This document shows, piece after piece, positions 11,901 to 30,503 of a stretch of 64,000 nucleotides of DNA (position 1 is the stretch's first letter; each line of letters begins with the position of its first letter). The notes below the pieces were generated by a model. The model saw only the letters and a program-made list of their open reading frames with translations, ran no database searches and was not told where the DNA came from. Origin of the DNA: Bacilli bacterium (lineage in GTDB: Bacteria > Bacillota_I > Bacilli_A > ML615J-28 > CAG-313); NCBI GenBank assembly GCA_035362935.1, contig DAOSEC010000001.1, forward strand, positions 71,665 through 135,664, in the 5' to 3' direction. A program made the translations under genes and the position numbers.

Positions 11901-14165
11901 TATGACAACACATCACCTGGACTTGCTGAAATGTTATACTTTATGAATCAATCAAAATCATTCAAGGTTGATGAAATTCGCAACATATTAAGCGAATTCT
12001 TAATTGGACCGGGTAACCTAATCTCAACAGCCAAAGAACTTGGAACTGTGACAGCAGGAACCCCAGAAGATCTCGTTATCGCTTGGGATGATGAAATATA
12101 TGCACTAATCTCCGTAATGGAAAGTTATAATTCAACCTTTACTGGTGGAGACTTCTTGGATAATTTAACCGATCGTTCAGAAATTGAAACCTTATTAGGA
12201 AGATTTAATGAGTCTGTTATGTTAAGAGAAGTATTGCCAGATATGGTTTATTCCGTATTGCCTGCTGAAATCATCTCTGATTGGGTAGATGCTTGGTTAA
12301 TCAATCAAGTAGGAGTAGATGGATTTGGTGATAACTTACCAGTTGAAAATTATGCATCATGGCAATCTGAAATTTCTAATATCGCAGGTATGATTGAAAC
12401 ATACAACAAAGCATTTGCTTCAGGATTTAATGTTGATTTAGCGACAATGCCTCTTGGTAACGTTGATAACAACCCAAGAATCTTAGGAAATGCATATGAC
12501 AACACATCACCTGGACTTGCTGAAATGTTGTACTTTATGAATCAATCAAAATCATTCAAGGTTGATGAAATTCGAAACATTTTAGATGAATTCTTAGTTG
12601 GACCTGGTAAATTAATCAACACAGCAAAAGAACTAGGAACTGTTACAGCAGGAACTCCAGAAGACTTAATTATTGCTTGGGATGAAGAAATCAAAGACTT
12701 AATCACAGCAATCGAAAAATACAATGATATTACAACAGGCGGTATGGGAGTGCCACTCGATTTATTCAGCGCACTCGATGATGAATCAACAATCAGTGAT
12801 GTGTTAGGAGCATTCAATGCATCTATCATGTTACGTGAAGTATTGCCAGATTTAATCAACGACATTGCAACTAGCGTGGGAATGACAAATTGGATTTCTA
12901 CATGGTTGACAGACCAAGTAGGTGTTGACCTATCAAGCAATAACAAACCAGTTCAATCAGAAGCTGTTTGGGCAGTCGAAGTTGTTAAAATTGCAACTGT
13001 TATCGCAGAAGCTAACAATGCATTTGGTGGAGATATGAGTTCACTTGATATCAGTGATTCAGGACTAGACGCAGATGCATTAGGAAATGTGTTACATGCG
13101 ATGAATGATACAGATAGTTTCGTTCTCGACGAACTCAACAACATTATGAAAGACGGATTGAATAACTTAGGATATAATGTAACGAACCTTAACGACAAAC
13201 CATCCACAAAAGCAGAATGGACTACCGAAATCGACATTATCGTAAGCATCATTAAAGATATGCAAATTATTGGTGATGTGGCTGTATTGGATTGGAACGA
13301 TATGGATAGTTTAATGGTAGATGGAAATCTAGATCCAGTTATTCGAGATATTGACAATACAACAAGACAAGTTACTCGTGGTGAATTGTTAGGAATTATG
13401 CTTAACTCAATGGGTGATTCCATTATTCTAAGCCCGGCTATGGATCAAATTATTGGTTCTGTATTTACAAGCGGTGGATTCGATGGATACTTTGACTTAA
13501 CAAGCGTAGACTTAGCAGAACTTGATTGGGTAGATGAAATTAGAGCAATCACAAGCATTAAAGATGATTTCGATAACTTTGATGGTGGTGGTGATTTAAG
13601 AACATTAAATGCAACATACATTGAAAATATGATACTTAATGCAAGTGAAGGTGTTATCGCATCTCAAATCATGGGAACAATTTTAATGGATCAATTCGCA
13701 TTCATCTTAGGAGCTAAAAACCCTATAGACCCACTTACATTAGAACCATATGATTGGAGAGATCAACAGTTACTAGAAGACAACGCTCACGCAATTGCTA
13801 ATATGATTACATTAGGGGAAGCATTGGGTAACATGTTTGGTGGTAACTTAGACAACTATGAAGATGTTGGAAATGCAATGAAAGAATTACAACCAGGTAT
13901 TGGCGTAGATCGACCTGCATTTGCTGATATTTACTTACCTGCATTCGTAGATTATGCATCAGGTGACGATGGAATGTTAGACAGCGTTGATATGACTACA
14001 GTTGATTACGTACTTGAAGGAAATGCATTTAACCAATTCTTTGAAGATTGGGATAGAACAGATATGTTTACAAGTGCAGCAACTCTTCCAGGAGCGTATG
14101 CAACATTACAAGGATCAGGAGCTCAAGTTTCATTGGTCATCGTAGATAGCATACTTGGATACTAA
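5925..14165 (+). CDS. giant (2746 aa) acidic repeat protein with a CvpA-like N-terminal multi-pass membrane domain
   Basis: It is a single uninterrupted 8.2-kb ORF with a good SD. The first ~210 aa carry 4 hydrophobic helices and a G..KG(L/F) motif resembling CvpA (colicin V production protein family). The remainder is D/E-rich and K/R-poor with about 8 tandem ~200-aa units. Confidence 0.75.
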   Translation: MPIPGINLGNIDLSNLMTYLYVLIGIAILAGVLGGFMKGLKKTIYTTVIYIGVYVAAWVALPYVVNAVYELNIGDLVRPYVAQYFNMELFGQPITSIKNLVMSALENFVPGANVILTPGSDALAFIEGTAIMVVRIIVFFVLLFVGGIVINLLGRILWTLFFKKLVGDTKYKDRDKTRKTNRFRLLGAAVGAVKGLFEALIIIVPIGGLMSVMSTLDSNTLRTLLGANPGEQTSLSEQEPENIGGIDAEAIVTFIEEYKASTLAQIVSQIKVGAEQKQIDYYIIDELGKIETKGNRKIYLREELVVVLEVVSEFPGVFTGEPIDPFNLTEEQINNVVTKLKQSRLIPELIIIGVDYALTMEEVQTIVDEYDIDTSDLAEIDWYQEFENVLDIGGNVLKLGNPQELDYLNIEAAKIRGITGSIAESQIINIVLPIAINYALSLPEVEEMLGEIEYDFSEIVWGNEIIAIGEIYISVTDLELNPDELGIELLDRLSDEDFFEGVLDVIGAISTSQVITQLAPALADAAYNSFAPEDFQGLLSFSNLQPDEWQDEFRRLLNIVVSISELGILSGEPINPMTLDMDAVRSIIENLFDLVVIQGNEGAIVARLTNMIPPIVEGFEPNLDPSLNWKEQALQIVNILEAVQQFGDISFDEEFDILSLLSAENADALANILTELNHSLILREIIPALINNFLGGGESSPIEMGISLEDFLSEWLTRQTTIDPITQEKIPMESIAEWDSEIIYIARMLIIAMDIMTVDISDLSNLPIGDKNYNAATAETFTTENAGFAQLLYLMNYAQSFKIEGIRTLLSTFLLGEGSLISTEKELGTVVALEDQTIIEAWNIEIVAMMTVIEEAQDVIAALSDENADIMDQLADPSKVETILLAFNDSQVLRVVLPDFIHTLLSTTGMEEWSTDWLADQVGVDEFGENNPTESIEVWEIEISLLAKAISGINSVLGGGFGEGFDFNNINLGDIDNHPMLPDYTGLNPDFDTTDMGLAEILFLVNHVKSLNIDALRDILGDFLIGEGSLVSTEKELGVVPGATLQAKTQNWDLEIITIIDLLSQYTELFGGEETPDFLALLDDSSKIKNLLTPLNHSFILREILPDMIDTLLAGAGTGELDGWFTDWLDDQVGVDGLGNNNPVASVAIWDDEIEVLAMLISVFNNAFGGALPSDISNLNVGDVDNHPVLLGNAYDDANPGLAELLYLMNYSKIFDVSNIRGLIGDFIVGPDKLINSSKELGVVTGADDEALLLAWDDEIKALIAVIDQYNTVFADMDQGDYLDQLTDKNTIQNLLGNFNHSILLREVLPDLLYSVMPAEIVTDWVDTWLVNQVGVDGLGNNNPVASIALWDEEIENIAGMIEAYNISFSGGFSIDLETMNLGDVDNNPRILGEDYDNTAPGLAEILYFMNQSKSFKVDEIRNIIGDFLVGPGNIIETDKELGTISAATPEDLIIAWDDEIKALINVMDQYNTLFAGSSDFLQDLNDRSEIESLLGGFNHSIILREVLPDLLYSVMPSEIVTDWVDAWLIDQVGVDGLGNNKPVASILDWDIEISKIAGMIEAYNISFSSGFSIDLETMNLGDVDNNPRILGEDYDNTSPGLAEILYFMNQSKSFKVDEIRNIIGDFLIGPGNIIETDKELGTITAGDSNALMLAWDEEIKALINVMNQYNTLFAGSSNFLQELTNRSDIEALLGGFNHSIILREVLPDLLYSVMPSEIVTDWVDTWLVNQVGEDAFGNNNLVESIAIWDEEISNIAGMIEAYNKSFSSGFSIDLETMNLGDVDNNPRILGEDYDNTTPGLAEILYFMNQSKSFKVDEIRNILSEFLIGPGNLISTAKELGTVTAGTPEDLVIAWDDEIYALISVMESYNSTFAGSSDFLGELTDRSVIETLLGRFNESIMLREVLPDLIYSVLPAEIISDWVDTWLVNQVGVDGLGDNNPVENYASWQTEISNIAGMIETYNKAFALGFNVDLATMPLGDVDNNPRLLGNAYDNTSPGLAEMLYFMNQSKSFKVDEIRNILSEFLIGPGNLISTAKELGTVTAGTPEDLVIAWDDEIYALISVMESYNSTFTGGDFLDNLTDRSEIETLLGRFNESVMLREVLPDMVYSVLPAEIISDWVDAWLINQVGVDGFGDNLPVENYASWQSEISNIAGMIETYNKAFASGFNVDLATMPLGNVDNNPRILGNAYDNTSPGLAEMLYFMNQSKSFKVDEIRNILDEFLVGPGKLINTAKELGTVTAGTPEDLIIAWDEEIKDLITAIEKYNDITTGGMGVPLDLFSALDDESTISDVLGAFNASIMLREVLPDLINDIATSVGMTNWISTWLTDQVGVDLSSNNKPVQSEAVWAVEVVKIATVIAEANNAFGGDMSSLDISDSGLDADALGNVLHAMNDTDSFVLDELNNIMKDGLNNLGYNVTNLNDKPSTKAEWTTEIDIIVSIIKDMQIIGDVAVLDWNDMDSLMVDGNLDPVIRDIDNTTRQVTRGELLGIMLNSMGDSIILSPAMDQIIGSVFTSGGFDGYFDLTSVDLAELDWVDEIRAITSIKDDFDNFDGGGDLRTLNATYIENMILNASEGVIASQIMGTILMDQFAFILGAKNPIDPLTLEPYDWRDQQLLEDNAHAIANMITLGEALGNMFGGNLDNYEDVGNAMKELQPGIGVDRPAFADIYLPAFVDYASGDDGMLDSVDMTTVDYVLEGNAFNQFFEDWDRTDMFTSAATLPGAYATLQGSGAQVSLVIVDSILGY
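7900..13080 (+). repeat. intragenic tandem repeats, about 8.5 units of ~597-600 bp (~199 aa)
   Basis: The unit signature NNPRILGEDYDNTxPGLAEILYFMNQSKSFKVDEIRNI...FNHSIILREVLPDLLYSV...DWVD.WL.NQVGVDGLGNN recurs at nt ~8215, 8850, 9480, 10083, 10680, 11280, 11880 and 12480. Units 4-7 are about 85-92% identical at nt level, and their differences are largely synonymous. Confidence 0.85.
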
Positions 14166-20150: not shown

Positions 20151-22667
20151 TTATAGTCCACATTTTAATTGTGCGTTACAGTTTGTACAAGTATGGCAAC
20201 CACCAATGTCTTCTACCGTACCTTCAAGGCAAATAGGGCAAATGTCACCAATTTCAACACCGATGTTTTTTCCTGCTTTGCTTCGCAAATGGAGCTGACT
20301 TTCAGTTTCCTTTGGAACTTTTACTTCTTCAACTTGAATTCCTAAATCTGTGAACTCAACTTGTTTTGGTAATATTTCTTCGTTCTTAAGAGTGAGAACT
20401 TGAGTATCGCGACTTCCATCAACGTATACAGTACCACCCTTAGCACCATTCTTGTATAAATACATATATAGTTCTTGTACTTGTTCAACACTATATCCTT
20501 TCGGAGCATTGACTGTTTTTGAGATTGAGGAATCGACCCAGCGTTGAATAATGCATTGTACGGCTGCATGTTCATGAGCAGTCAATTCCATCGCCGAAAC
20601 AAACGTATTAGGTAATGTAGCTTCTGTATATTGCGGATATAGTTGTAGGAATCGTTCTACGATAGGAGCATTTACTTCCATAAATTTACCCAATCGACCA
20701 CTGCGGTAATACTTAAATGCAAAGTAAGGCTCTAATCCTGTAGAAACCCCAACCATAGTTCCAGTTGATCCTGTCGGAGCAATCGTCAATAGATGAGAGT
20801 TACGAATTCCATATTTTAATACACCATCGCGTATGTCTTTTGGCATTTTTTTCATAAAACCTGACTCTACAAATTTTTGACGAGACCCATATTGTTCTAA
20901 AAAGGGGAAACTTCCCTTTTCTTTTGCTAAATCAATCGATGTTTTGTAAGCATGATATGCGATAAACTCAAACAATTGATCGACAAACTTGTTTCCTTGT
21001 TTGGATCCATAGCGAATATTACAGTAAATCATCAAATCATGTAGACCCATAATTCCAAGCCCAACACGACGTTCACCGAGTGCTTGTTTTTTATTGGGTT
21101 CTAAGAAGTATGCCGTACGATCAATGACATTATCTTGCATACGCACACTTGCACGAATCGTTTTTTCTAACTTTGTCCAATTTACAGTTTGATGATCGAA
21201 ATCAACCATGTTTGCAAGATTGATTGCCGCTAAGTTACATACAGAGTATGGAGCAAGCGGTTGTTCTCCACATGGGTTCGTACAAACAACTTGTTGGTTG
21301 TATCCAGTGGCATTGGTCATATCGTTTGCATTGTCCATGAAGAAAATGCCCGGTTCAGCCGAATAAGTTGCACAAATGTTGATTAAATTCCATAATTCTT
21401 TGGCTTTAATGGATTTATAGACTCTTACGGAATAACCCATTTCTTGCCAACGTCTTACATCACCAATTTCATGCCATTTTTCATCGTAAGCTGCTTTTTC
21501 TCCGGCAGAGTAATTATCGATATCTGGAAAGCGCAAATCATAATAAGAATCGTTTTCAACTGCTTGCATAAATTCTTTTGTAATCGCAACTGAAATATTA
21601 GACCCACTTAGATATTCTGGATTATTTACCTCATATCTACCCTTGTACTTTAAAAATTCTTTCACCTTGTCATAAACACCACGTTTTAAGGTTCCTGGTT
21701 TTGCGTCCTCAAACTCACTTAAGGTTTCATACATTTCCATCTCTTCTGACTTCAGTGGAATAAATTTTAACTTATTTTTTGCTTCTCTAACTATATCTTC
21801 ATCTTGAATATGATCAATTAAAAATTGTAAAATTTTTGGGTTTTGCATTTTTGAGATAATGAACTCAATAATATCTGGATGCCAATCCGCCATCATAATC
21901 ATTTGTGCACCGCGGCGGGATCCACCCTGCTCAACAAGATGAGTCAGTTGTGATAAGTCATGTAACCAACTAACTGCACCACTTGATTTCCCACTGACTC
22001 CTTTGGCAAGTGAGTTTTTTGGTCTTAGTGTTGATCCGTTCGTACCTACTCCACCACCACGAGACATAATTTCCATAACTTGTTGGCGATGTTGACTGAT
22101 ACCAACACGTGAATCATGTACAAAAGGCATTACAAAACAGTTAAAATATGTCACAGCACTATTGCTTCCTGCACCAAACAATACTCGTCCAGCTGGAACA
22201 AGATTCAGTTCTGAAATCTCGTGATAGAAAGCATTTACCTTATCAAGAGTTTCACCCACTGCCAAATTGTTTGCAACGCGATGTGCAATCTGTTCATAAA
22301 ATATTTCCATAGGCTTATCTACCGCATTCTTCATTCGGCAAATTTCCCCTGTTGGAAGTTTGTCTGTTGCTAACCCATCGTACTCATCTTCTAATAATAT
22401 ATATATTTTTTCATCTACAATTTTTGTGATGTAACCAATCCCTCTTGATGGAAATTTTGGATCATCTTTTACAACACATACCACAAGGTCCCCTATTCCT
22501 AGTGTTAGGTGATTGATGTCTTTTTGGGTGTAACGATCTAACATTACTAAGCGAGAAACCCCATCAAATGTTTTATTCATTTTCTCATCAACTAAAAACA
22601 AATGGGGAAAATGATTTTTGATGTCCTGATTGAGTTTATCAATCAACGTCTTTTTGTAAGTATGCAT
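20151..22667 (-). CDS. nrdJ: ribonucleotide reductase, class II-like monomeric form (adenosylcobalamin-dependent type, NrdJ-like). The class is not certain.
   Basis: Active-site region TNPCGEQPL...CNLAAINL of class I/II RNRs. The length is 838 aa. A C-terminal CxxC...CxxC Zn-ribbon is present, and no nrdB/nrdF or nrdG partner lies nearby. Confidence 0.65.
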   Translation of the reverse strand: MHTYKKTLIDKLNQDIKNHFPHLFLVDEKMNKTFDGVSRLVMLDRYTQKDINHLTLGIGDLVVCVVKDDPKFPSRGIGYITKIVDEKIYILLEDEYDGLATDKLPTGEICRMKNAVDKPMEIFYEQIAHRVANNLAVGETLDKVNAFYHEISELNLVPAGRVLFGAGSNSAVTYFNCFVMPFVHDSRVGISQHRQQVMEIMSRGGGVGTNGSTLRPKNSLAKGVSGKSSGAVSWLHDLSQLTHLVEQGGSRRGAQMIMMADWHPDIIEFIISKMQNPKILQFLIDHIQDEDIVREAKNKLKFIPLKSEEMEMYETLSEFEDAKPGTLKRGVYDKVKEFLKYKGRYEVNNPEYLSGSNISVAITKEFMQAVENDSYYDLRFPDIDNYSAGEKAAYDEKWHEIGDVRRWQEMGYSVRVYKSIKAKELWNLINICATYSAEPGIFFMDNANDMTNATGYNQQVVCTNPCGEQPLAPYSVCNLAAINLANMVDFDHQTVNWTKLEKTIRASVRMQDNVIDRTAYFLEPNKKQALGERRVGLGIMGLHDLMIYCNIRYGSKQGNKFVDQLFEFIAYHAYKTSIDLAKEKGSFPFLEQYGSRQKFVESGFMKKMPKDIRDGVLKYGIRNSHLLTIAPTGSTGTMVGVSTGLEPYFAFKYYRSGRLGKFMEVNAPIVERFLQLYPQYTEATLPNTFVSAMELTAHEHAAVQCIIQRWVDSSISKTVNAPKGYSVEQVQELYMYLYKNGAKGGTVYVDGSRDTQVLTLKNEEILPKQVEFTDLGIQVEEVKVPKETESQLHLRSKAGKNIGVEIGDICPICLEGTVEDIGGCHTCTNCNAQLKCGL

Positions 22668-22926: not shown

Positions 22927-25900
22927 ATGGCAAAACGATTAGAACTAGATTATCGTCTTAGACTTTCTAACCATCATTTATCAAATATATATGATTCAGG
23001 ATACTATTTAGAAGTCGGTAATTTAGATGCAAACCTCATTACAAGAATCATAAATGGCGAAGAGCTGTCTTTTTATGATGTAATCAATCCACATATAGCA
23101 CACGACAGTCCAAGCAAGATTGCGAATGTCGAGTACGACGAAGTATTGCAAATGCGATATTTTCTGAACAAAAAAGCGATTGATTCGAGTGAAAAGATTT
23201 TTTTGACATGTGGTATTCTAAAATGGAAATCCTCCAAAGACAGTGAAATATTCGCGCCAATCATATTGATACCAATTCGTGTTGTTGAACGAAAACTTAA
23301 TCAATTTTATCTAAAACGATCTGGAAAAATCATTCACAACAAATATCTAAGTGAAGAAATCAAACGTAGAATGGGAATGGATATTCCTCGATTTGATAAG
23401 CCAGAAACTGTTTTCGACATTGATTATTATGGAGAATTTTTAGCAAAATTAACAAATTCTTCTTTTGAACTTGGCAATTTTATTACCTATGCTAGAGTTG
23501 ATTATATGGACATTGATTTGGACCGAAATAAGTTTAGTCCTCAACGTTCCTTTATGAATTATGATTTAAATGAAATTCATCTTTACCCACTCATTCACTT
23601 AAACATGATTTTACCTGCGAACAAAGAACAAAAAGACGCCCTTATAGTGGCTTCTGAAGGGAAGAGTTTCGCAATTGATGGCAAACTTGGAACAGGAAAA
23701 ACAACAACAGCAATCAATATAATCGCAAACAAAATTCATCAAGAACAAAGCGTTTTATATATATCAAACGATTCTTACCAATTGAAAGCATTTAAACAAA
23801 GAGTGATTGAACTAAAACTTGACAAATATATGTTTGACTTTGATCATCCTTGTGAACAAACAGAATCAGTAGAGGAAGATATTGACATTCGTGTATCAAA
23901 AGAAAGTTATCATAAGCTCTCCGAATTAACGCATAGAATGACCAATATCCAAAAAATACTATTAAGTAAGGTTTGTGGATATCGTTATGGAGAAATTTAT
24001 CATCAAATAGCTTATTTGAGCAGATTAGATAAAGCAAGTTTGAGTTACCCAAAAATCATACACCTACATCGACATGAAATTGAACAAATCATCCCAAGTC
24101 TTAATCAAATCGAAGCTTCATTAATCAAACTAGTTCCTTTTGAAAAAAGCATTTGTCATTCTCTTCACGAAACATTAAAAGCGTCTGATGAAGAAAAGAT
24201 TAAAGAATCCTTAAAGCAATTTAAAATAACCCAATTACAGGGACAAATGATGTCAAAAAAATTGACAGATCTTTATCATATTCAACAAACAAATGATATC
24301 CGCCTTATTCGACGCCTAATTTATAATTTTAACTCATTAAAAAATCATCAACCATCTCAATCGTGGATTGATGAAGATTTGATTGCATATCAAAAAGCGT
24401 TGAAAAAAATTGATGAGTTAGAAACAAAGATTAAGCAGTATTATCTTGTTTCCGAAGAACTATCTGATAAGTTTGATTACCGCATCACCAGTGTAAACAT
24501 GGACGAAGTGATTACTGGTTTATTTGGTGAGTATTTTAAAGAAACCGAAGTTGAAATTGTAAATTTGCTACTTCAATACAAAAAGCAATTACTTCGTATT
24601 GCTTTGGGTGTGGAAAACAACAAAAACAATTTTACAAGATTAAAAGGTCAATTAAACAATCACTTTAGTACACGCAAAGTAGAATTAGGAACATTAGAAG
24701 AACTATCTGAACTTGTCACCTTTTTAGAACGAAATGAATTCAACAATAAATGGATTGGATTTGCGATTAACGAAAAGACACAATTATTGCGAAAAATGAA
24801 GCAATATGAAGATTATTTCCTTTCTTATCAAAGTTCTTATGTATATATTCTTGATTCTTTGGTAAAAAACGATTTAACAGCAATTTCAGAGCTTATAGAG
24901 CCGTTTAATAAGAAAGGCAAAGCAAAAGGAAATCAAACCAAACACGAGATAAAACGAATTAAAAAATACGTCAAACCTCACATTTGGAAAGACCCAACCT
25001 TTAACATGAACAAATTAATCCAAAAACTTAAAAAACATATTGAACTAGACAAGGAATATATTAGACAGAAATCGAGTTATGAAGAATTGTTTGGGGAACT
25101 CCCAGTACGCTTATTAGGACTAACCGATCAACTCTCAAATACCATTAATTTGTTAGAAAAGTATCGATTGAATAAAGCTTTTCCTGTACGAAACTATTTA
25201 AACTATTTTAGCAGTTTAAGTGCACCTGAACAAAAGAATGCTTTAAAAGATCTACAAACCATGATTTTGATTCAAAAAGAAATTGAGAAAAATATCGAAG
25301 AGCTAAAACCATTTGGGTTTAAAGTTCGTAGTTATCATTTTGAGTCTAGATTGCAAGAGATAGCTTCAATCTCGTTATATTTGAAGAAACTATATCGATC
25401 CAATGATTACATAAAGAGTTTAGTGCTCAAACCAAAAAATAATATTATCGTAGATGACTTTATTGCGGTATCCAATGATACAGCTGTGAAGCCAGCAGTA
25501 TTGCAATTATTTGACCCAGTTACCATTGCACAGTCAAATCAAGCACAAGTTGCAAGCATATCCCAAAACACGAAAGACGGTTTACAGGTGAATGATTACT
25601 ACTACATAAAACAACTTCTTGAAGAAAAGCAAAATGTGTTATCGTTTTTAGAAAAGAGCGAGTTTGAATATCGTTATTTGTATGGTTCTTATTACAAAGG
25701 GCTAAATACGGAAGTTTCAGCCATTCGATTGGCACTTGAAAAATTTGGAAAATTTATTAAAATGATTCCAAATCCGGAAGATGTCATAGGATTGTTTCGA
25801 CCAGACCAATATGTACGATTCCAAGCTGATTTTGAACAAGTATCCTATTTTTATGAAAAATGGATGGTTGCCTTCCGAGAATACTCCAAATATTTCAAAG

Positions 25901-27396
25901 AAAACAACATAGCTTATATTGATAATACATTCTTAGACAATGTTAAGCACATCGATGAATTGATGAAACACACAGATTCCTTGAAAGACTATTTAGTTGT
26001 ACTCGAACACTCAAATGTGTTAAAAGATTATAAGCTAGACGATATCGTGAAACGAATCTTTAATGGAGAACTAACAAACAACATTAAGCATGGATTTTTA
26101 TATCAATATTTCGTTTCTTTAAGCAAAGACTTTGTTCAAACATATCCAGAAATCTTAACTCTCCAAACCGTGAATGAAGGATTGATCGAAATCGATAAGC
26201 TAACAACGTTGATTTTAGAAGAGAACAAAGCCTTATTACAATCTGCTCAAGACGCTGATTATGAGAAAATTGCTCATAGAATGAAACGAATCAAACCAAA
26301 TAATTATAACGAAATGGTAAAGATTAGTTTACATAGTAAGTATCTTTATATTGCGGATTCAGATATCTTATTAAGTGGACTTGACATTGGCTTTTTTGAT
26401 TGCGTTATCGTCGATGATGCACATATTGCAAATTCCAATAAATATGTGAAAGTCGCAGAAGCAAAACAACTCATTATCATTGGTGACAAAGATGCCAAAA
26501 GTTCGATTGCAAACAACTTAATATCTAGAATTCGACACGGAAACACAATACCTTTAAAGTTTAACTATCATAGAAACAATAAAATTCTTATGGATTATAA
26601 AAAAGAAAAAGACAACAACAAAGGAATCATTGATGACTTTTTATTAAAAGAAACCGGGTTTTCTTATATTGAACAAGAACAACCATTCGTAGATTACATC
26701 ACGCAACTGCACCACAAAGACCCGAATGCAAAAATCAATATCTATGTTGGTAACGATTTGATGAATTTTACTGTATATAAACAACTCGCAAATTATTTTA
26801 TTGAAACGGGTTTTGAAAAAGACCAAGTGTTAGATATTTTATCAAATCAAATTCGAATTTCTGATGCAAGAATTAATTATTTAAGTTTTGCAGATTACAA
26901 CATATTCTATTACAATGATTATATCGATGTTGAAGAAGTTGTGCTTGAGATTACACTGACATCTTTGATGAGTGTACACAAAGCATTTATTATTTATCAT
27001 CATATTGACCCAGAACAAACACCAATTATCAAAAAACCACTAGAAACTTTGATTAAATATATTTCAAAATATAAGAAATGGAATCTAGTAGAAGACCAAG
27101 AATCTATTAAGTATCCATTATCACAATCTCTTGTCAACAAAGGGTTCAAAGTCTATCAAGGATTTGGTAACATTGATATCATTTTCAAGAAGAAAAATCA
27201 AGTTTATGGTATTATAGTGTATAATGAGCCACAAAAACTCGACTTAGATTTGATTGAAGATTACGAAAACTATGTTAAAACTATGGCAGAACAAGGAATA
27301 AAAATATATATGATTTTTTCTAAAGATGTTTGTGAACGATTTGATCAAGTCATAGAACATATTATTTCCCAATGTGAGGTACAACATGATTCGTAA
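22927..27396 (+). CDS. large DUF4011 / Upf1-like SF1 helicase-family protein with degenerate motor motifs (architecture resembles Hhe-type defence helicases)
   Basis: The N-terminal LTCGILKWK...EIFAPIILIPIRV matches the DUF4011 L.GfL.W / PLlLvPv signature. Walker A GKLGTGKTT is at about aa 255. After a ~900-aa insert comes Walker B VIVDDAH. Motif III reads IIGDKDAKS (no Q) and motif IV reads NYHRN instead of QYRMHP. No TRxK motif VI was seen. Confidence 0.55.
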   Translation: MAKRLELDYRLRLSNHHLSNIYDSGYYLEVGNLDANLITRIINGEELSFYDVINPHIAHDSPSKIANVEYDEVLQMRYFLNKKAIDSSEKIFLTCGILKWKSSKDSEIFAPIILIPIRVVERKLNQFYLKRSGKIIHNKYLSEEIKRRMGMDIPRFDKPETVFDIDYYGEFLAKLTNSSFELGNFITYARVDYMDIDLDRNKFSPQRSFMNYDLNEIHLYPLIHLNMILPANKEQKDALIVASEGKSFAIDGKLGTGKTTTAINIIANKIHQEQSVLYISNDSYQLKAFKQRVIELKLDKYMFDFDHPCEQTESVEEDIDIRVSKESYHKLSELTHRMTNIQKILLSKVCGYRYGEIYHQIAYLSRLDKASLSYPKIIHLHRHEIEQIIPSLNQIEASLIKLVPFEKSICHSLHETLKASDEEKIKESLKQFKITQLQGQMMSKKLTDLYHIQQTNDIRLIRRLIYNFNSLKNHQPSQSWIDEDLIAYQKALKKIDELETKIKQYYLVSEELSDKFDYRITSVNMDEVITGLFGEYFKETEVEIVNLLLQYKKQLLRIALGVENNKNNFTRLKGQLNNHFSTRKVELGTLEELSELVTFLERNEFNNKWIGFAINEKTQLLRKMKQYEDYFLSYQSSYVYILDSLVKNDLTAISELIEPFNKKGKAKGNQTKHEIKRIKKYVKPHIWKDPTFNMNKLIQKLKKHIELDKEYIRQKSSYEELFGELPVRLLGLTDQLSNTINLLEKYRLNKAFPVRNYLNYFSSLSAPEQKNALKDLQTMILIQKEIEKNIEELKPFGFKVRSYHFESRLQEIASISLYLKKLYRSNDYIKSLVLKPKNNIIVDDFIAVSNDTAVKPAVLQLFDPVTIAQSNQAQVASISQNTKDGLQVNDYYYIKQLLEEKQNVLSFLEKSEFEYRYLYGSYYKGLNTEVSAIRLALEKFGKFIKMIPNPEDVIGLFRPDQYVRFQADFEQVSYFYEKWMVAFREYSKYFKENNIAYIDNTFLDNVKHIDELMKHTDSLKDYLVVLEHSNVLKDYKLDDIVKRIFNGELTNNIKHGFLYQYFVSLSKDFVQTYPEILTLQTVNEGLIEIDKLTTLILEENKALLQSAQDADYEKIAHRMKRIKPNNYNEMVKISLHSKYLYIADSDILLSGLDIGFFDCVIVDDAHIANSNKYVKVAEAKQLIIIGDKDAKSSIANNLISRIRHGNTIPLKFNYHRNNKILMDYKKEKDNNKGIIDDFLLKETGFSYIEQEQPFVDYITQLHHKDPNAKINIYVGNDLMNFTVYKQLANYFIETGFEKDQVLDILSNQIRISDARINYLSFADYNIFYYNDYIDVEEVVLEITLTSLMSVHKAFIIYHHIDPEQTPIIKKPLETLIKYISKYKKWNLVEDQESIKYPLSQSLVNKGFKVYQGFGNIDIIFKKKNQVYGIIVYNEPQKLDLDLIEDYENYVKTMAEQGIKIYMIFSKDVCERFDQVIEHIISQCEVQHDS

Positions 27397-27955
27397 AAAA
27401 GGGTCTAAAAAATTACTCTATGAGTTTGTTAGATATTTAAAAGACAATCAAGATTCAACGATTGCGATCAAGCACCGACTACTCAAACTAGATGAAGCGG
27501 ATGTTGACCTAAATGCAAAAATGTATCGCGGAAGAACTCTAATGCATTACGCAGTCATGATGAATAAGAAAAATATGATCAAATTATTTATCAAAAGCGG
27601 TGTTAATCCAAATATCGCAGATGATGACTTTTACACACCACTTCATCTTGCAATTAGTAAAAAATATTACCATGCAGCAAAAGAACTTCTACGACATGAA
27701 GTGGATTTGAACGCTGGAGCAGAATTTGAACAAACACCATTGCACATAGCTGTAATAAGTGGTAATCTAGATTTGGTTAAGTTACTAATAGACCATGGGG
27801 CAGACTATTTGATGATTGATGAAAAAAACAATTATCCGATTGATTATGCAATTGATGAAAAAGATGTTAAAATTATTAATTATCTATTAAGCAAACAATC
27901 CATCGATGATGTAAGACAAAAACAAATTGATAAAATAAATAAAGAAAAAAGGTGA
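27386..27955 (+). CDS. ankyrin-repeat protein (~4 ANK repeats)
   Basis: Repeated TPLH.A...G....V..LL..GAD.N units. A GAGGT SD lies 5 nt before the ATG at 27386. It overlaps the stop of the upstream large gene by 11 nt and ends 5 nt before cdaA. Confidence 0.8.
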   Translation: MIRKKGSKKLLYEFVRYLKDNQDSTIAIKHRLLKLDEADVDLNAKMYRGRTLMHYAVMMNKKNMIKLFIKSGVNPNIADDDFYTPLHLAISKKYYHAAKELLRHEVDLNAGAEFEQTPLHIAVISGNLDLVKLLIDHGADYLMIDEKNNYPIDYAIDEKDVKIINYLLSKQSIDDVRQKQIDKINKEKR

Positions 27956-27960
27956 TTTAG

Positions 27961-28767
27961 ATGGAATTATTTGACAATTTAAGAGACTATTTTTCATCCT
28001 ATACAAACAATTATTCTGTTTTCGGTGTGATTCGTTTGGTCATAGATTTATTGTTTTTAGGAATAATTGTGTTTGTTATATTGAACTTTCTGTTTAAAAA
28101 CGCAAAGATATGGTTAGTCCTTAAAAGCTTCTTCTTTCTATTCATAATTGGGGTGATATCGCTTGCTCTTGATTTATCGATTATGAAAGAAGTAATCAAG
28201 TATGGTATTTTTGTTTTAATTGGTGTTATAGTTATCACTTACTCACCAGAAATCAAACAATTAACCGATGCTCTTGTCCGTACAAAAGGAGTAAAGCATA
28301 AAATCAATACAGAAGAAGAAAAAGAACAATTGATTAACACTTTAATTACTACAGTAGAGTATTTATCAAAAAGACACATTGGGGCCATCATCACAATAGA
28401 GGAAGAAAACTCACTCAATATGTATATTGATAAAGCAATAATAATAGATTCACAAGTAAGTTTTGAGTTATTGACAACTATTTTTACCCCAGGGACCGCA
28501 CTCCACGATGGTGCAGTAATTATTCGTGGAAATCGCATTATGTGTGCTGCGGCATATTTCCCATCTACTGATAAGTTCGATATACCAAAAAATTTAGGTT
28601 CTAGACATCGTGCTGCTATTGGTATTAGTGAGATTTGTGATGCATTTACTATTGTTGTTTCTGAAGAGCGCGGTAAGGTTTCTACCACAATTGATGGAAC
28701 CATCAATATAGGGGTTTCTCTTGATGATTTAAGAGAATCACTTAATAAATATGTATTGACTCAATAA
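27961..28767 (+). CDS. cdaA: diadenylate cyclase (c-di-AMP synthase), membrane-anchored
   Basis: Three N-terminal TM helices followed by a DAC domain with TGTALHDGAVII.GNRI and LGSRHRAAIGISE motifs. Confidence 0.85.
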   Translation: MELFDNLRDYFSSYTNNYSVFGVIRLVIDLLFLGIIVFVILNFLFKNAKIWLVLKSFFFLFIIGVISLALDLSIMKEVIKYGIFVLIGVIVITYSPEIKQLTDALVRTKGVKHKINTEEEKEQLINTLITTVEYLSKRHIGAIITIEEENSLNMYIDKAIIIDSQVSFELLTTIFTPGTALHDGAVIIRGNRIMCAAAYFPSTDKFDIPKNLGSRHRAAIGISEICDAFTIVVSEERGKVSTTIDGTINIGVSLDDLRESLNKYVLTQ

Positions 28768-29219: not shown

Positions 29220-30503
29220 ATGCAAACAATTATTGCAATGCTACAAGGGTTGTATCAAACCTTATTCGTACAGTATCCTGCATTTATCGCAATTATTTTA
29301 ACAACTACCATTGTATTAATGGGATTTGTTCGGATGCTAGCGTTTAAAAAAGTACCAGTATTAGAAATTGTGTTAGCAATCTTAATTGCTGGATTTTATT
29401 ATGCTCTTAGAGTTCCAATCGTTGTTCCAGCAGGACTTGTAACAAAAGCACGATATGGTGTATACATTTTTGCTTTTTTGGCAAACGTTGCAACAATCAT
29501 TCATTTTATTATCACAAAAAAAGCAGTAACCGCAACAACTCAAACTTCTGTTGATTACTTAAAAAATGCAAATGTAGATATATATGTTGAAGTTAATCAA
29601 CGCGGTAAAATCAAAGAATGCAACTTGGAGTTTTTGAGTATTGTTAATTTAGAGCGAAAAGATGTTTTAGGAAAAAAATTATTACCGCTCATTATTGATA
29701 AAGTTGACATCGTTACCTTTGATGGAGACCTCTTTAATGAATCTGTCATCAAAGCACTACATGAAAAATCAAAAAATCGTAAGAAAGAAAAAAACAATAT
29801 TCAATTTGAAATTCAGTATCGTAATAACGAAGGAAGTTTATTAACATATCACTTCTTTGAAATTCCAATTTTTGTGGGAAATCGATATGTTGGTAAAGTA
29901 CTGGTTGGTGAAAAAGAAAAGTCAACTCTGCTTGTAAGGGCACAAACAGCTCTAGGACAATTAATGGCAGATGTTAATACCGCTAAACAGCAAACATTTG
30001 CACTATTCACATTACTAAACGAACCTGCGTTCTTATTTGATCACTCAAGTAAAAAGTATTTATTATCTGAAAAGATCAGACGCGTCTTAAACATGAACGA
30101 ATCCGAGATTAATTTTGATCAGTATCTAAAAATGATGCACCCAGATGACATCGAACGATTTGTTGAAAAAAGTGCTGAAGTGAACAGTCGTACCATCACA
30201 AAGTTCACATACCGTATAAAAATTGGCAGTGAATATATGGTGTTTGAAGAAAGTTCAATTTTACTTGATGATGAAAACTCTCAAGTATCACTCATACGTT
30301 TGGTTAAAGTGAGAAAAGAAAAAGCACCAGAACCTGTTGTAGAACAAAAACATGAAGAAGTGGTTGCTCCCGTAGCTGTTGAGACGAAAGATTCCGTTAT
30401 TGTAAAACAAAAAATTGAACCAAAACCTCAGCCAAAACCAACCAATGAAGATTTACTAAAAGAACTAAAAGCACTAGAAGATCGAATTTTTACAAAGAAA
30501 TAA
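29220..30503 (+). CDS. membrane protein with PAS-like cytoplasmic domains and no recognisable output domain
   Basis: Three N-terminal TM helices. A PAS-like core follows (FDQYLKMMHPDDIERF and a preceding similar block). The C-terminus is Pro/Lys-rich. Confidence 0.4.
   Translation: MQTIIAMLQGLYQTLFVQYPAFIAIILTTTIVLMGFVRMLAFKKVPVLEIVLAILIAGFYYALRVPIVVPAGLVTKARYGVYIFAFLANVATIIHFIITKKAVTATTQTSVDYLKNANVDIYVEVNQRGKIKECNLEFLSIVNLERKDVLGKKLLPLIIDKVDIVTFDGDLFNESVIKALHEKSKNRKKEKNNIQFEIQYRNNEGSLLTYHFFEIPIFVGNRYVGKVLVGEKEKSTLLVRAQTALGQLMADVNTAKQQTFALFTLLNEPAFLFDHSSKKYLLSEKIRRVLNMNESEINFDQYLKMMHPDDIERFVEKSAEVNSRTITKFTYRIKIGSEYMVFEESSILLDDENSQVSLIRLVKVRKEKAPEPVVEQKHEEVVAPVAVETKDSVIVKQKIEPKPQPKPTNEDLLKELKALEDRIFTKK

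What the first reader, a model, noticed from the sequence alone, without database searches (positions are those of the whole stretch)
26300..27396. The helicase motor motifs look inactivated, suggesting a pseudo-helicase
Walker A (GKLGTGKTT) and Walker B (VIVDDAH) are recognisable. Motif III, where GDxxQLPP is expected, reads IIGDKDAKSS with no Q. Motif IV reads LKFNYHRNNK where QYRMHP is expected. I found no motif VI (TRA[KR]) arginine finger. The region after motif IV is too short to hold a complete RecA2 domain before a C-terminal ~150-aa region that looks like an endonuclease-fold remnant. The protein could therefore bind nucleotide without translocating, which would suit a sensor or scaffold role more than a helicase role.
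Basis: inference. Interest (0 to 1): 0.55.

Follow-up and report, generated by a model that had tools for sequence, protein, structure and literature searches.

The report
Degenerate helicase-nuclease relative beside cdaA
This 1489-residue protein is a conserved, selected relative of the ProA/Hhe anti-phage helicase-nucleases that keeps its ATP-binding pocket and overall fold but has lost the motor and nuclease motifs, and its gene always sits directly upstream of the c-di-AMP synthase gene cdaA.

Summary
The four motif strings exist where stated, except Walker A, which lies about 900 residues upstream (window 23680-23706). All belong to one ORF, 22927..27396 (+), 1489 aa.

Profile comparison shows the protein is collinear with ProA/Hhe-type DUF4011 SF1B helicase-nucleases (hhalign probability 99.9%). 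It lacks only the DUF3320 tail.

In 68 family members the Q motif, Walker A, the DD of Walker B and the motif III glycine are invariant. The gamma-phosphate and motor residues of motifs III-VI are not conserved. The query keeps 3 of 28 canonical-invariant RecA2 positions.

The claim that RecA2 is too short fails. AlphaFold2 predicts a complete RecA-like domain (pLDDT about 90), and Foldseek matches it to Upf1 and IGHMBP2.

The last ~100 aa have a Vsr/PD-(D/E)xK-like secondary-structure order but lack the invariant catalytic Asp.

The gene is not decaying (dN/dS 0.06). It forms a closed family of about 90 clusters in Acholeplasmatales-like Bacilli. In 50 of 50 loci it lies immediately upstream of cdaA, usually with an ankyrin-repeat gene between them.

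Verdict: a probable pseudo-helicase/pseudo-nuclease ATP switch. It is a new variant of a known kind. Loss of activity is inferred, not shown.

The parts
22927..27396 (+). Whole gene ('BIG'), 1489 aa. Degenerate DUF4011-type SF1B helicase-nuclease homologue.
   Evidence: ORF. hhalign against ProA/Hhe-type proteins gives probability 99.8-99.9%, collinear over aa 6-1489. dN/dS is 0.056 against a 94%-identical orthologue.
22927..23586 (+). N-terminal DUF4011-like domain (aa 1-220). This is the best-conserved part; L18, E29, G31, P111, I112, L114, P116 and N138 are invariant.
   Evidence: Pfam DUF4011 E 6.5e-8. Invariant columns. 10 of 14 canonical-invariant positions are kept. The AF2 model shows a beta-rich fold.
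23587..23916 (+). RecA1 N-half (aa 221-330): Q motif (Q235), Walker A GKLGTGKTT (aa 252-260, window 23680-23706) and motif Ia (VLYIS).
   Evidence: Coordinates. Q235, G252, G257 and K258 are 68/68; L016 and P0124 also have GxxxxGK[ST]. Aligns to IGHMBP2 motifs Q/I/Ia.
23917..26298 (+). All-helical insertion of about 795 aa within RecA1 (aa 331-1124). It is also present in canonical ProA/Hhe-type relatives. aa 844-888 (25456-25590) is a disordered insert found only in the query and P0001.
   Evidence: AF2 secondary structure and pLDDT. Collinear hhalign. Alignment.
26299..26541 (+). RecA1 C-half (aa 1125-1205): Walker B VIVDDAH (26404-26424), with DD in place of DE. Motif III remnant QLIIIGDKDAKSS (G1186 invariant, no Gln at G+4; 26476-26505).
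   Evidence: IGHMBP2 alignment of motifs II/III.
26542..27021 (+). RecA2-like domain (aa 1206-1365). The fold is complete but the motifs are degenerate. Motif IV remnant LKFNYHR (26554-26583). Motif V equivalent IRISDARINYLSFADYNIFY (26851-26910). Motif VI equivalent ITLTSLMSVHKAFIIYH (26950-27000).
   Evidence: AF2 pLDDT about 90, with 7 strands and 5 helices. Foldseek hits Upf1 2gk6 at E 6e-5 and IGHMBP2 4b3g. 3 of 28 canonical-invariant positions are kept. No Pfam AAA_12 hit in the query, and AAA_12 is not among the 25 families that most of the 27 scanned members match. dN/dS is 0.056.
27103..27393 (+). C-terminal nuclease-like domain (aa 1393-1489). It is homologous to PF18741 (MTES_1575)/Vsr-like domains and its catalytic residues are lost.
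   Evidence: hhalign aligns it to the MTES_1575 domain of P0029. AF2 gives the order helix, three strands, helix, strand, helix. The canonical invariant Asp of xDG becomes Y1432 (0% retained in the family). The invariant Arg of YRIW becomes M1462 (0%). dN/dS is 0.085.
27386..27955 (+). Ankyrin-repeat protein gene (189 aa). Its start overlaps the BIG stop by 11 nt. It is probably co-expressed and is a candidate partner.
   Evidence: Pfam Ank_2, Ank and Ank_4 at E 1e-25 to 1e-26. A homologue lies between BIG and cdaA in 45 of 50 loci.
27961..28767 (+). cdaA-type diadenylate cyclase (268 aa), with hydrophobic N-terminal stretches, a DAC domain, and the DGA and RHR motifs.
   Evidence: Pfam DAC E 5e-37. 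Motifs read from the translation. A CdaA homologue starts within 1 kb of the BIG stop in 50 of 50 loci.

Best explanation
BIG is a vertically inherited, full-length but catalytically degenerate member of the DUF4011 SF1B helicase-nuclease superfamily, whose characterised members are the anti-phage proteins Hhe and ProA.

Shown:
- It keeps the whole domain order: DUF4011, split RecA1, helical insertion, RecA2, Vsr-like domain.
- Its adenine/ATP-binding half-site in RecA1 is invariant (Q motif, P-loop, acidic pair, motif Ia).
- RecA2 is folded but has lost the motif III Gln, motif V and the motif VI Arg finger. In this clade it has also lost the motif IV Arg.
- The nuclease-like domain lacks its invariant Asp.
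- The gene is under purifying selection.
- It is always the gene directly upstream of cdaA, usually with an overlapping ankyrin-repeat gene in between.

Inferred:
- ATP binding, with at most slow hydrolysis, toggles the RecA1-RecA2 cleft and the long helical arm.
- This would make the protein a nucleotide-gated clamp or scaffold on nucleic acid and/or on partner proteins, not a translocating motor or a nuclease.
- That would be comparable to the inactivated helicase/nuclease folds of RecC and AddB.
- The ankyrin protein is the most likely direct partner.
For: - Homology and collinearity: hhalign probability 99.8-99.9%, E 8e-30 to 2e-33.
- Weak ProA, PDC-S37 and Hhe profile hits, far below the family cut-offs.
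- P-loop, Q motif and DD are invariant, while motifs III-VI are not conserved.
- Retention of canonical-invariant positions by domain is 10/14, 12/27, 7/15, 3/28 and 6/12 for DUF4011, RecA1-N, RecA1-C, RecA2 and nuclease.
- The family profile matches solved helicases only through RecA1.
- A C-terminal profile finds no canonical AAA_12 helicase through its RecA2 segment among 1.84 billion representatives.
- RecA2 fold is complete.
- dN/dS is 0.056 overall, 0.056 in RecA2 and 0.085 in the nuclease-like part.
- The query clade lost the residual motif IV Arg (N1213) and the motif VI basic residue (H1351) yet stays under selection.
- Intact ORFs of 1385-1505 aa occur in 44 of 50 GTDB species loci; the others are cut by contig ends or contain Ns.
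- Gene neighbourhood.
Against: - No biochemistry exists. The conclusion rests on which residues are conserved.
- Strict conservation of Walker A, Walker B and the Q motif would also fit a protein that still hydrolyses ATP.
- 57 of 68 members keep an Arg one residue before the motif IV Tyr, and 43 of 68 have Lys/Arg at the position that may equal the motif VI finger. The query has R1216 and K1352 nearby.
- The RecA2 residue mapping is uncertain by about 2 positions between MAFFT and hhalign.
- A complete RecA2 fold means cleft closure is still physically possible.
- I could not inspect model coordinates to list residues around the gamma-phosphate.
Confidence: 0.6

Rival explanations
1. BIG is still an active ATPase/translocase whose motor motifs have been replaced by lineage-specific equivalents. 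Candidates are DD for DE, the Arg before the motif IV Tyr, a Lys/Arg cluster at motif VI, and 'ADYN' for motif V.
For: - Q motif, Walker A, the DD pair and motif Ia are invariant.
- R1213 is present in 57 of 68 members and K/R at 1351 in 43 of 68. K1352 is common.
- RecA2 fold is complete at high confidence.
- Selection on RecA2 is strong.
Against: - None of the candidate substitute residues is invariant.
- The query clade lacks both (N1213, H1351) with no relaxation of selection.
- The motif III Gln is not at the canonical spacing in any member.
- Only 16% mean retention of canonical-invariant RecA2 positions across the family.
- The shortened loop before motif VI removes the GGxRRLN segment.
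Confidence: 0.22
2. BIG remains an anti-phage protein. It would act as a sensor that has lost its own nuclease and works through another effector, rather than as a housekeeping factor.
For: - Its nearest characterised relatives are the anti-phage proteins ProA and Hhe.
- It evolves faster than its neighbours: 22-27% identity, against 41-56% for CdaA and 72-76% for RNR.
Against: - No mobile-element or defence-island context. It occupies a fixed position inside a block of housekeeping genes in 50 of 50 loci with downstream sequence, including a 62% G+C member.
- Intact ORFs are found in the species sampled.
- In E. coli Hhe, defence was abolished by the E1731A nuclease mutation (bioRxiv 10.1101/2022.06.16.496414). 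The nuclease site is lost here.
Confidence: 0.1
3. BIG is a decaying relic (pseudogene in progress) of a once active helicase-nuclease.
For: Loss of catalytic motifs in two domains.
Against: - dN/dS is 0.04-0.15 in every region.
- Long intact ORFs are kept at 22-27% identity across dozens of species.
- The predicted fold is confident.
Confidence: 0.02

Closest known systems
ProA (NCBIfam NF058533) and Hhe (NF042953): DUF4011 anti-phage SF1B helicase-nucleases
   Same: Domain order and collinear alignment: DUF4011, RecA1 split by a helical insertion of about 700-800 aa, RecA2, then a Vsr-like MTES_1575 domain.
   Different: - Scores are 92 and 41 bits against cut-offs of 1500 and 2000.
- No DUF3320 tail.
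- Motifs III-VI and the nuclease Asp are lost.
- It is a fixed chromosomal gene next to cdaA rather than a stand-alone defence gene.
Upf1-like SF1B helicases (Upf1, IGHMBP2, Aquarius, nsp13)
   Same: They are the best structural matches for the RecA1-C plus RecA2 model. Motifs Q, I, Ia and II align by sequence.
   Different: The textbook contacts are absent: GDxxQ (III), QYR (IV), TxxxQGxE (V) and TRA[KR] (VI). The assignment of Gln III, Arg IV and Arg VI as gamma-phosphate contacts comes from my knowledge of Upf1 and PcrA structures. I did not test it here.
RecC of RecBCD and AddB of AddAB (inactivated helicase folds used as scaffolds or readers)
   Same: A helicase fold is retained and selected although the motor motifs are dead. 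AddB 'carries an inactive helicase domain' (PMC5443536).
   Different: - Different SF1 branch.
- RecC and AddB work inside a complex with an active motor subunit. No such partner is seen here.
- AddB keeps an active nuclease; BIG does not appear to.
- That RecC has a dead nuclease-like domain is from my own knowledge.
Deinococcus radiodurans PriA, an experimentally shown pseudohelicase (PMC4504706)
   Same: Lineage-wide loss of helicase motifs in an otherwise conserved protein that keeps binding functions.
   Different: PriA is an SF2 helicase with a known role in replication restart. Its lack of ATPase was measured; here it is only inferred.
DisA, and the CdaA-CdaR-GlmM module of c-di-AMP control
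   Same: A DAC-domain cyclase is genetically coupled to a large accessory protein. DisA links DNA scanning to c-di-AMP synthesis (my own knowledge).
   Different: No sequence relation exists. The coupling of BIG to CdaA is only a conserved gene adjacency. No cdaR or glmM lies beside cdaA in this window.

Membership tests
SF1B Upf1-like helicase (Pfam AAA_11 + AAA_12) | Walker A GxxxxGK[ST] preceded by a Q motif | tested here: met
   GKLGTGKTT is aa 252-260 and Q235 precedes it. Both are invariant in the family and align to IGHMBP2.
SF1B Upf1-like helicase (Pfam AAA_11 + AAA_12) | Motif II DExx with the catalytic Glu | tested here: not met
   The motif is DDAH. The second acidic residue is Asp in 68 of 68 members. 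The canonical invariant Glu is retained in 0%.
SF1B Upf1-like helicase (Pfam AAA_11 + AAA_12) | Motif III GDxxQ(L)PP | tested here: not met
   Only G1186 is invariant. Asp or Glu at G+1 occurs in 52 of 68. No member has Gln among the six commonest residues at G+4, and there is no PP.
SF1B Upf1-like helicase (Pfam AAA_11 + AAA_12) | Motifs IV (YR), V (QGxE) and VI (TRA[KR] Arg finger) in RecA2 | tested here: not met
   3 of 28 canonical-invariant RecA2 positions are kept. There is no invariant Arg. No AAA_12 hit in the query. AAA_12 is not among the 25 families that most of the 27 scanned members match.
SF1B Upf1-like helicase (Pfam AAA_11 + AAA_12) | Two RecA-like domains forming the helicase core | tested here: met
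   AF2 model with pLDDT 83.6 overall and about 90 in RecA2. Foldseek hits Upf1 and IGHMBP2 at E 6e-5 over 272-285 columns.
SF1B Upf1-like helicase (Pfam AAA_11 + AAA_12) | Nucleic-acid-stimulated ATPase and 5'-3' translocation | not testable with these tools
   This needs purified protein.
Hhe / ProA anti-phage proteins (NCBIfam equivalogs) | Score above the curated equivalog cut-off | tested here: not met
   ProA scores 91.7 bits against a cut-off of 1500. Hhe scores 40.6 against 2000. Controls: P0031 scores 2279 as ProA and P0034 scores 2426 as Hhe.
Hhe / ProA anti-phage proteins (NCBIfam equivalogs) | Architecture DUF4011 - AAA_11 - AAA_12 - MTES_1575 - DUF3320 | tested here: inconclusive
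   The protein is collinear through the MTES_1575-like domain by profile-profile alignment. The DUF3320 tail is absent, and AAA_12 and MTES_1575 are not detectable by Pfam. The downstream ankyrin protein is not a split-off DUF3320.
Hhe / ProA anti-phage proteins (NCBIfam equivalogs) | Functional nuclease active site (E1731A abolishes Hhe defence) | tested here: not met
   The invariant Asp of xDG becomes Y1432. The Glu position of Hhe-type ECDG becomes I1430. The invariant Arg becomes M1462. Mapping E1731 to the ECDG motif is my inference.
Pseudohelicase (helicase fold without motor activity) | Helicase fold retained, catalytic motifs lost, gene under purifying selection | tested here: met
Pseudohelicase (helicase fold without motor activity) | Demonstrated absence of ATPase or unwinding activity | not testable with these tools
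   This needs biochemical assays.
PD-(D/E)xK / Vsr-like nuclease (Pfam MTES_1575, DUF559) | Core fold: helix, three strands, helix, strand | tested here: met
   AF2 secondary structure of aa 1393-1489, and profile alignment to the MTES_1575 domain of P0029. No separate fold search of this domain was possible.
PD-(D/E)xK / Vsr-like nuclease (Pfam MTES_1575, DUF559) | Conserved catalytic acidic residues | tested here: not met
   D1417 is kept in only 29 of 68 members. The xDG Asp is retained in 0%.

The most novel reading that the evidence does not exclude
BIG would be an exapted defence-type helicase-nuclease that has become a catalytically dead, ATP-gated sensor controlling c-di-AMP synthesis. 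Together with the ankyrin-repeat protein, it would couple the state of nucleic acid (or another ligand read by the DUF4011/RecA1 module) to the membrane cyclase CdaA. It would thereby play the role that the DNA-scanning module plays in DisA, or that CdaR/GlmM play in other Firmicutes. The evidence does not exclude this. In 50 of 50 loci BIG is the gene directly upstream of cdaA, often with overlapping stop and start codons. This holds even in a 62% G+C member that lacks the ankyrin gene, and no cdaR or glmM flanks cdaA here.
Probability: 0.15. Interest if true: 0.75.

Novelty: new variant of a known kind. Interest (0 to 1): 0.52.

Why it matters
- It would add a clear bacterial example of a combined pseudo-helicase and pseudo-nuclease: a whole 1400-aa helicase-nuclease architecture kept under selection after losing both catalytic centres.
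- Members of the ProA/Hhe superfamily are usually read as mobile defence genes. This one is a fixed, lineage-wide chromosomal gene.
- The organisms are Acholeplasmatales-like Bacilli, a group I know to have small genomes (not measured here). A conserved 4.5-kb gene of unknown function in such genomes is notable.
- Its invariable position in front of cdaA gives a concrete, testable lead on how c-di-AMP synthesis might be controlled where cdaR and glmM are not adjacent.
- For annotation, 'DEAD/DEAH box helicase' (the NCBI name of P0007) is probably misleading for this family.

Tried and rejected
- Foldseek of the aa 1-1200 model gave only nonspecific SMC/coiled-coil matches (TM about 0.05) and weak Upf1 RecA1 hits. 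No solved Hhe/ProA-like structure surfaced.
- The promoter/terminator scan gave no more sites than shuffled sequence.
- Ankyrin protein as a split-off DUF3320 tail: rejected (hhalign probability 0.1%).
- A conserved partner gene next to bona fide ProA: none seen.
- Literature on ProA: nothing found. Literature linking Acholeplasma, cdaA and ankyrin: nothing relevant.
- Pseudogene or decay: rejected by dN/dS and intact ORFs.
- Unrelated P-loop protein (the STAND, KaiC and ABC Pfam hits): rejected. Those hits cover only the Walker A region, whereas the whole protein aligns to DUF4011 helicases.
- Caveat on my own sampling: locus-derived sequences were filtered with the pattern G.GK[TS]. The 68/68 count for G255 is therefore partly by construction. 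L016 (GRLNSGKT) and P0124 (GYAQTGKS) lack G255 but still fit GxxxxGK[ST].
Full report
**1. What is at the coordinates**

The finding lies in the C-terminal quarter of a single ORF, 22927..27396 on the + strand, 1489 aa. The quoted strings are real:

- VIVDDAH is aa 1160-1166 (window 26404-26424).
- IIGDKDAKSS is aa 1184-1193 (26476-26505).
- LKFNYHRNNK is aa 1210-1219 (26554-26583).
- GKLGTGKTT (Walker A) is aa 252-260 (23680-23706). This is 2.6 kb upstream of the stated interval.

RecA1 is therefore split by an insertion of about 795 aa. Pfam detects only a DUF4011 fragment and generic P-loop/helicase N-terminal hits. It finds no AAA_12 domain and no nuclease domain. NCBIfam and PADLOC give weak hits to the anti-phage proteins ProA (92 bits, cut-off 1500), PDC-S37 (96 bits) and Hhe (41 bits, cut-off 2000).

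**2. Homology and architecture**

A database search found 27 clusters of 1380-1490 aa proteins from Bacilli MAGs. It also found distant canonical proteins with the architecture DUF4011 - AAA_11 - AAA_12 - MTES_1575 - DUF3320. Among those, P0031 is a bona fide ProA and P0034 a bona fide Hhe.

Profile-profile alignment of the family against these canonical proteins is collinear from aa 6-9 to aa 1488-1489. Probability is 99.8-99.9% and E is 8e-30 to 2e-33. The protein is therefore a full-length homologue: DUF4011 domain, RecA1 N-half, long helical insertion, RecA1 C-half, RecA2, Vsr-like nuclease domain. Only the DUF3320 tail is missing. The downstream ankyrin gene is not a split-off version of that tail.

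**3. State of the motifs**

I aligned 68 non-redundant family members: 27 database proteins plus ORFs from GTDB loci.

Invariant positions:
- Q235 (Q motif).
- G252, G257 and K258, with T/S at 259 (Walker A).
- D1163 and D1164 (Walker B).
- G1186.
- Motif Ia residues L277 and Y278 are invariant in the 27-member set.

Walker B reads DD rather than DE in every member.

Degenerate positions:
- Motif III keeps only the Gly. A Gln occurs at G+3 or G+5 in fewer than half of the members. It is not among the six commonest residues at the canonical G+4.
- Motif IV: 57 of 68 members have Arg one residue before the conserved Tyr ('RY'), whereas canonical proteins have 'YR'. The query clade has N-Y-H.
- The motif V equivalent reads 'NIxDLxxxYLxxADYNI', with no QG or ExD.
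- The motif VI equivalent reads 'NxIxxLLxCxKxLIIxD'. The position that may correspond to the Arg finger is K in 27, R in 16 and other residues in 25 (H in the query).

I then took the 117 positions that are invariant in seven canonical ProA/Hhe-type proteins.

| Domain | Positions kept in the query | Mean retention in the family |
|---|---|---|
| DUF4011 | 10 of 14 | 0.61 |
| RecA1-N | 12 of 27 | 0.43 |
| RecA1-C | 7 of 15 | 0.42 |
| RecA2 | 3 of 28 | 0.16 |
| Nuclease-like | 6 of 12 | 0.29 |

Two independent searches agree. The family profile hits solved helicases (IGHMBP2, UvrB, Dna2, Aquarius) only through RecA1. A profile of the C-terminal 365 aa, searched against 1.84 billion representative proteins, found 129 proteins. 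Nearly all are 1330-1510 aa family members or fragments of them. No ordinary AAA_12 helicase matched through its RecA2 segment.

**4. Is RecA2 truncated?**

No. AlphaFold2 on aa 1125-1489, using the family alignment, gave mean pLDDT 83.6 and pTM 0.75. The segment aa ~1245-1375 has pLDDT of about 90-96. From the motif IV strand to the strand after motif VI the model has seven strands and five helices, which is the order expected for an SF1B RecA2 domain.

Foldseek against the PDB returned Upf1 (2gk6, E 6e-5, 272 columns) and IGHMBP2 (4b3g, 285 columns), followed by UvrB, Aquarius and nsp13.

By my count, the query domain is about 30 residues shorter than in P0029 (aa 1210-1358 against 1131-1312). 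The main reason is that the loop carrying GGxRRLN before motif VI is shortened. The loss of the motifs stands.

**5. The nuclease-like end**

aa 1393-1489 are modelled as helix, three strands, helix, strand, helix. They align to the MTES_1575 domain of P0029.

- The canonical invariant Asp of the xDG motif corresponds to Y1432 and is retained in 0% of the family.
- The invariant Arg of 'YRIW' corresponds to M1462 (0% retained).
- The first Asp (D1417) is kept in 29 of 68 members.

In E. coli Hhe, the E1731A mutation in the nuclease domain abolished defence (bioRxiv 10.1101/2022.06.16.496414). That this Glu lies in the ECDG motif is my inference. ProA-type proteins themselves have Leu at that Glu position, so the Asp is the more reliable marker. 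'Endonuclease-fold remnant' is a fair description, but the domain is about 100 aa, not 150.

**6. Not a pseudogene**

I compared the gene with a 94%-identical orthologue (L057).

| Region | dN/dS |
|---|---|
| Whole gene | 0.056 |
| RecA1-C | 0.020 |
| RecA2-like | 0.056 |
| Nuclease-like | 0.085 |
| Neighbouring genes | 0.012-0.067 |

Of 50 GTDB species loci, 44 carry an intact ORF of 1385-1505 aa. The others are cut by contig ends or contain Ns.

**7. Where the gene lives**

The family occurs in records named Anaeroplasma bactoclasticum, Acholeplasmataceae, Acholeplasmatales, Tenericutes, Mollicutes, Erysipelotrichaceae and unclassified Bacilli.

The neighbourhood is a block of housekeeping genes: hflX and a class II RNR upstream on the other strand, then BIG, an ankyrin-repeat gene, cdaA, mgsA, a membrane PAS protein, ispD, ispF, nifU, and later the tsaEBD genes.

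Upstream, RNR is present in only 17 of 41 informative loci. Downstream, a CdaA homologue starts within 1 kb of the BIG stop in 50 of 50 loci. In 45 of them the ankyrin gene lies in between. In the other five, cdaA follows at -1 to +61 nt.

This holds even for the most divergent member: P0124, 1684 aa, on a 62% G+C contig. There the cdaA start overlaps the BIG stop. In the window the ankyrin start (27386) overlaps the BIG stop by 11 nt. CdaA here has the DAC domain with the DGA and RHR motifs. No cdaR or glmM is adjacent.

BIG diverges faster than its neighbours: 22-27% identity, against 33-55% for ANK, 41-56% for CdaA and 72-76% for RNR.

**8. Interpretation**

Shown:
- A complete DUF4011 helicase-nuclease architecture.
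- An invariant nucleotide-binding half-site.
- Degenerate RecA2 and nuclease catalytic residues.
- Purifying selection.
- A fixed position in front of cdaA.

Inferred: the protein binds ATP but does not work as a processive motor or a nuclease, and instead acts as a nucleotide-gated scaffold or sensor. The ankyrin protein is the likely direct partner.

The best internal argument concerns the residual basic residues at motifs IV and VI, which most members keep. They are dispensable, because the query clade lacks both yet shows no relaxation of selection.

The main rival is a still-active but divergent helicase. It cannot be excluded without enzymology, because Walker A/B conservation and a closable two-RecA core also fit hydrolysis.

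Known precedents for retained but dead helicase folds include AddB (PMC5443536), D. radiodurans PriA (PMC4504706) and RecC (my own knowledge). The concept is therefore not new. Its occurrence in the ProA/Hhe superfamily, as a lineage-wide chromosomal gene tied to cdaA, is new as far as the searched literature shows.

Chromosomal DUF4011 genes are also noted as core in P. aeruginosa (PMC10250203) and occur in mycoplasmas. A non-defence role for some superfamily members is therefore not unprecedented.

**9. Verdict**

I rate it a new variant of a known kind, of moderate interest. The most novel reading still open is that BIG, with the ankyrin protein, regulates CdaA. I put that at about 15%.

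Noticed in passing
window 27386-28767; loci L004-L055, L062, L063: BIG is followed by cdaA in 50 of 50 loci, with an ankyrin-repeat gene in between in 45. Stop and start codons often overlap. No cdaR or glmM lies next to cdaA. This suggests a lineage-specific cdaA operon structure.
   Followed up: partly
window 25456-25590 (aa 844-888): An insert of about 45 aa rich in Q, A, S, T and V (AVSNDTAVKPAVLQLFDPVTIAQSNQAQVASISQNTKDG...) is present only in the query and the 94%-identical P0001. AlphaFold2 predicts it to be disordered (pLDDT 27-44).
   Followed up: no
L062:8001-13860 (protein P0124): A 1684-aa family member sits on a 61.7% G+C contig, in contrast to the ~34% G+C window. It has the same degenerate motifs, extra insertions in RecA2, no ankyrin gene, and a cdaA start that overlaps its stop. 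Its source organism is unknown.
   Followed up: partly
protein P0156: A 1595-aa protein has fully canonical helicase motifs (DEASQ, GDSKQLPPS, WHYRS, QGDERD, TRAR). Its nuclease motif GIIVDN resembles this family's GIIVYN rather than ECDG. It may be an intermediate form.
   Followed up: no
proteins P0028, P0031, P0032 (ProA-type): ProA-type proteins have Leu (GILCDG, GVLLDG) where Hhe-type proteins have the Glu of ECDG. The Glu is therefore not universal in the superfamily. Only the following Asp is invariant.
   Followed up: partly
window 5925-14165 (+): A 2746-aa ORF has no Pfam match except a faint DUF3502 hit. Large ORFs (2746 and 2344 aa products) occupy the same upstream position in L001 and L004.
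   Followed up: partly
window 29220-30503 (+): A 427-aa protein has a hydrophobic N-terminus and weak PAS-domain hits. Detectable homologues lie downstream of cdaA/mgsA in about half of the loci (20-30% identity).
   Followed up: no
loci L006, L020, L024, L027, L029, L034, L042: GTDB records carrying this Bacilli-type gene block are titled Prevotella, Bacteroidales or Staphylococcaceae MAGs. These labels are probably errors in the source records.
   Followed up: no
window 20151-22667 (-): The class II-type ribonucleotide reductase ends in a Cys-rich tail (CPICLEGTVEDIGGCHTCTNCNAQLKCGL). It is divergently oriented from BIG across a 259-nt spacer.
   Followed up: no
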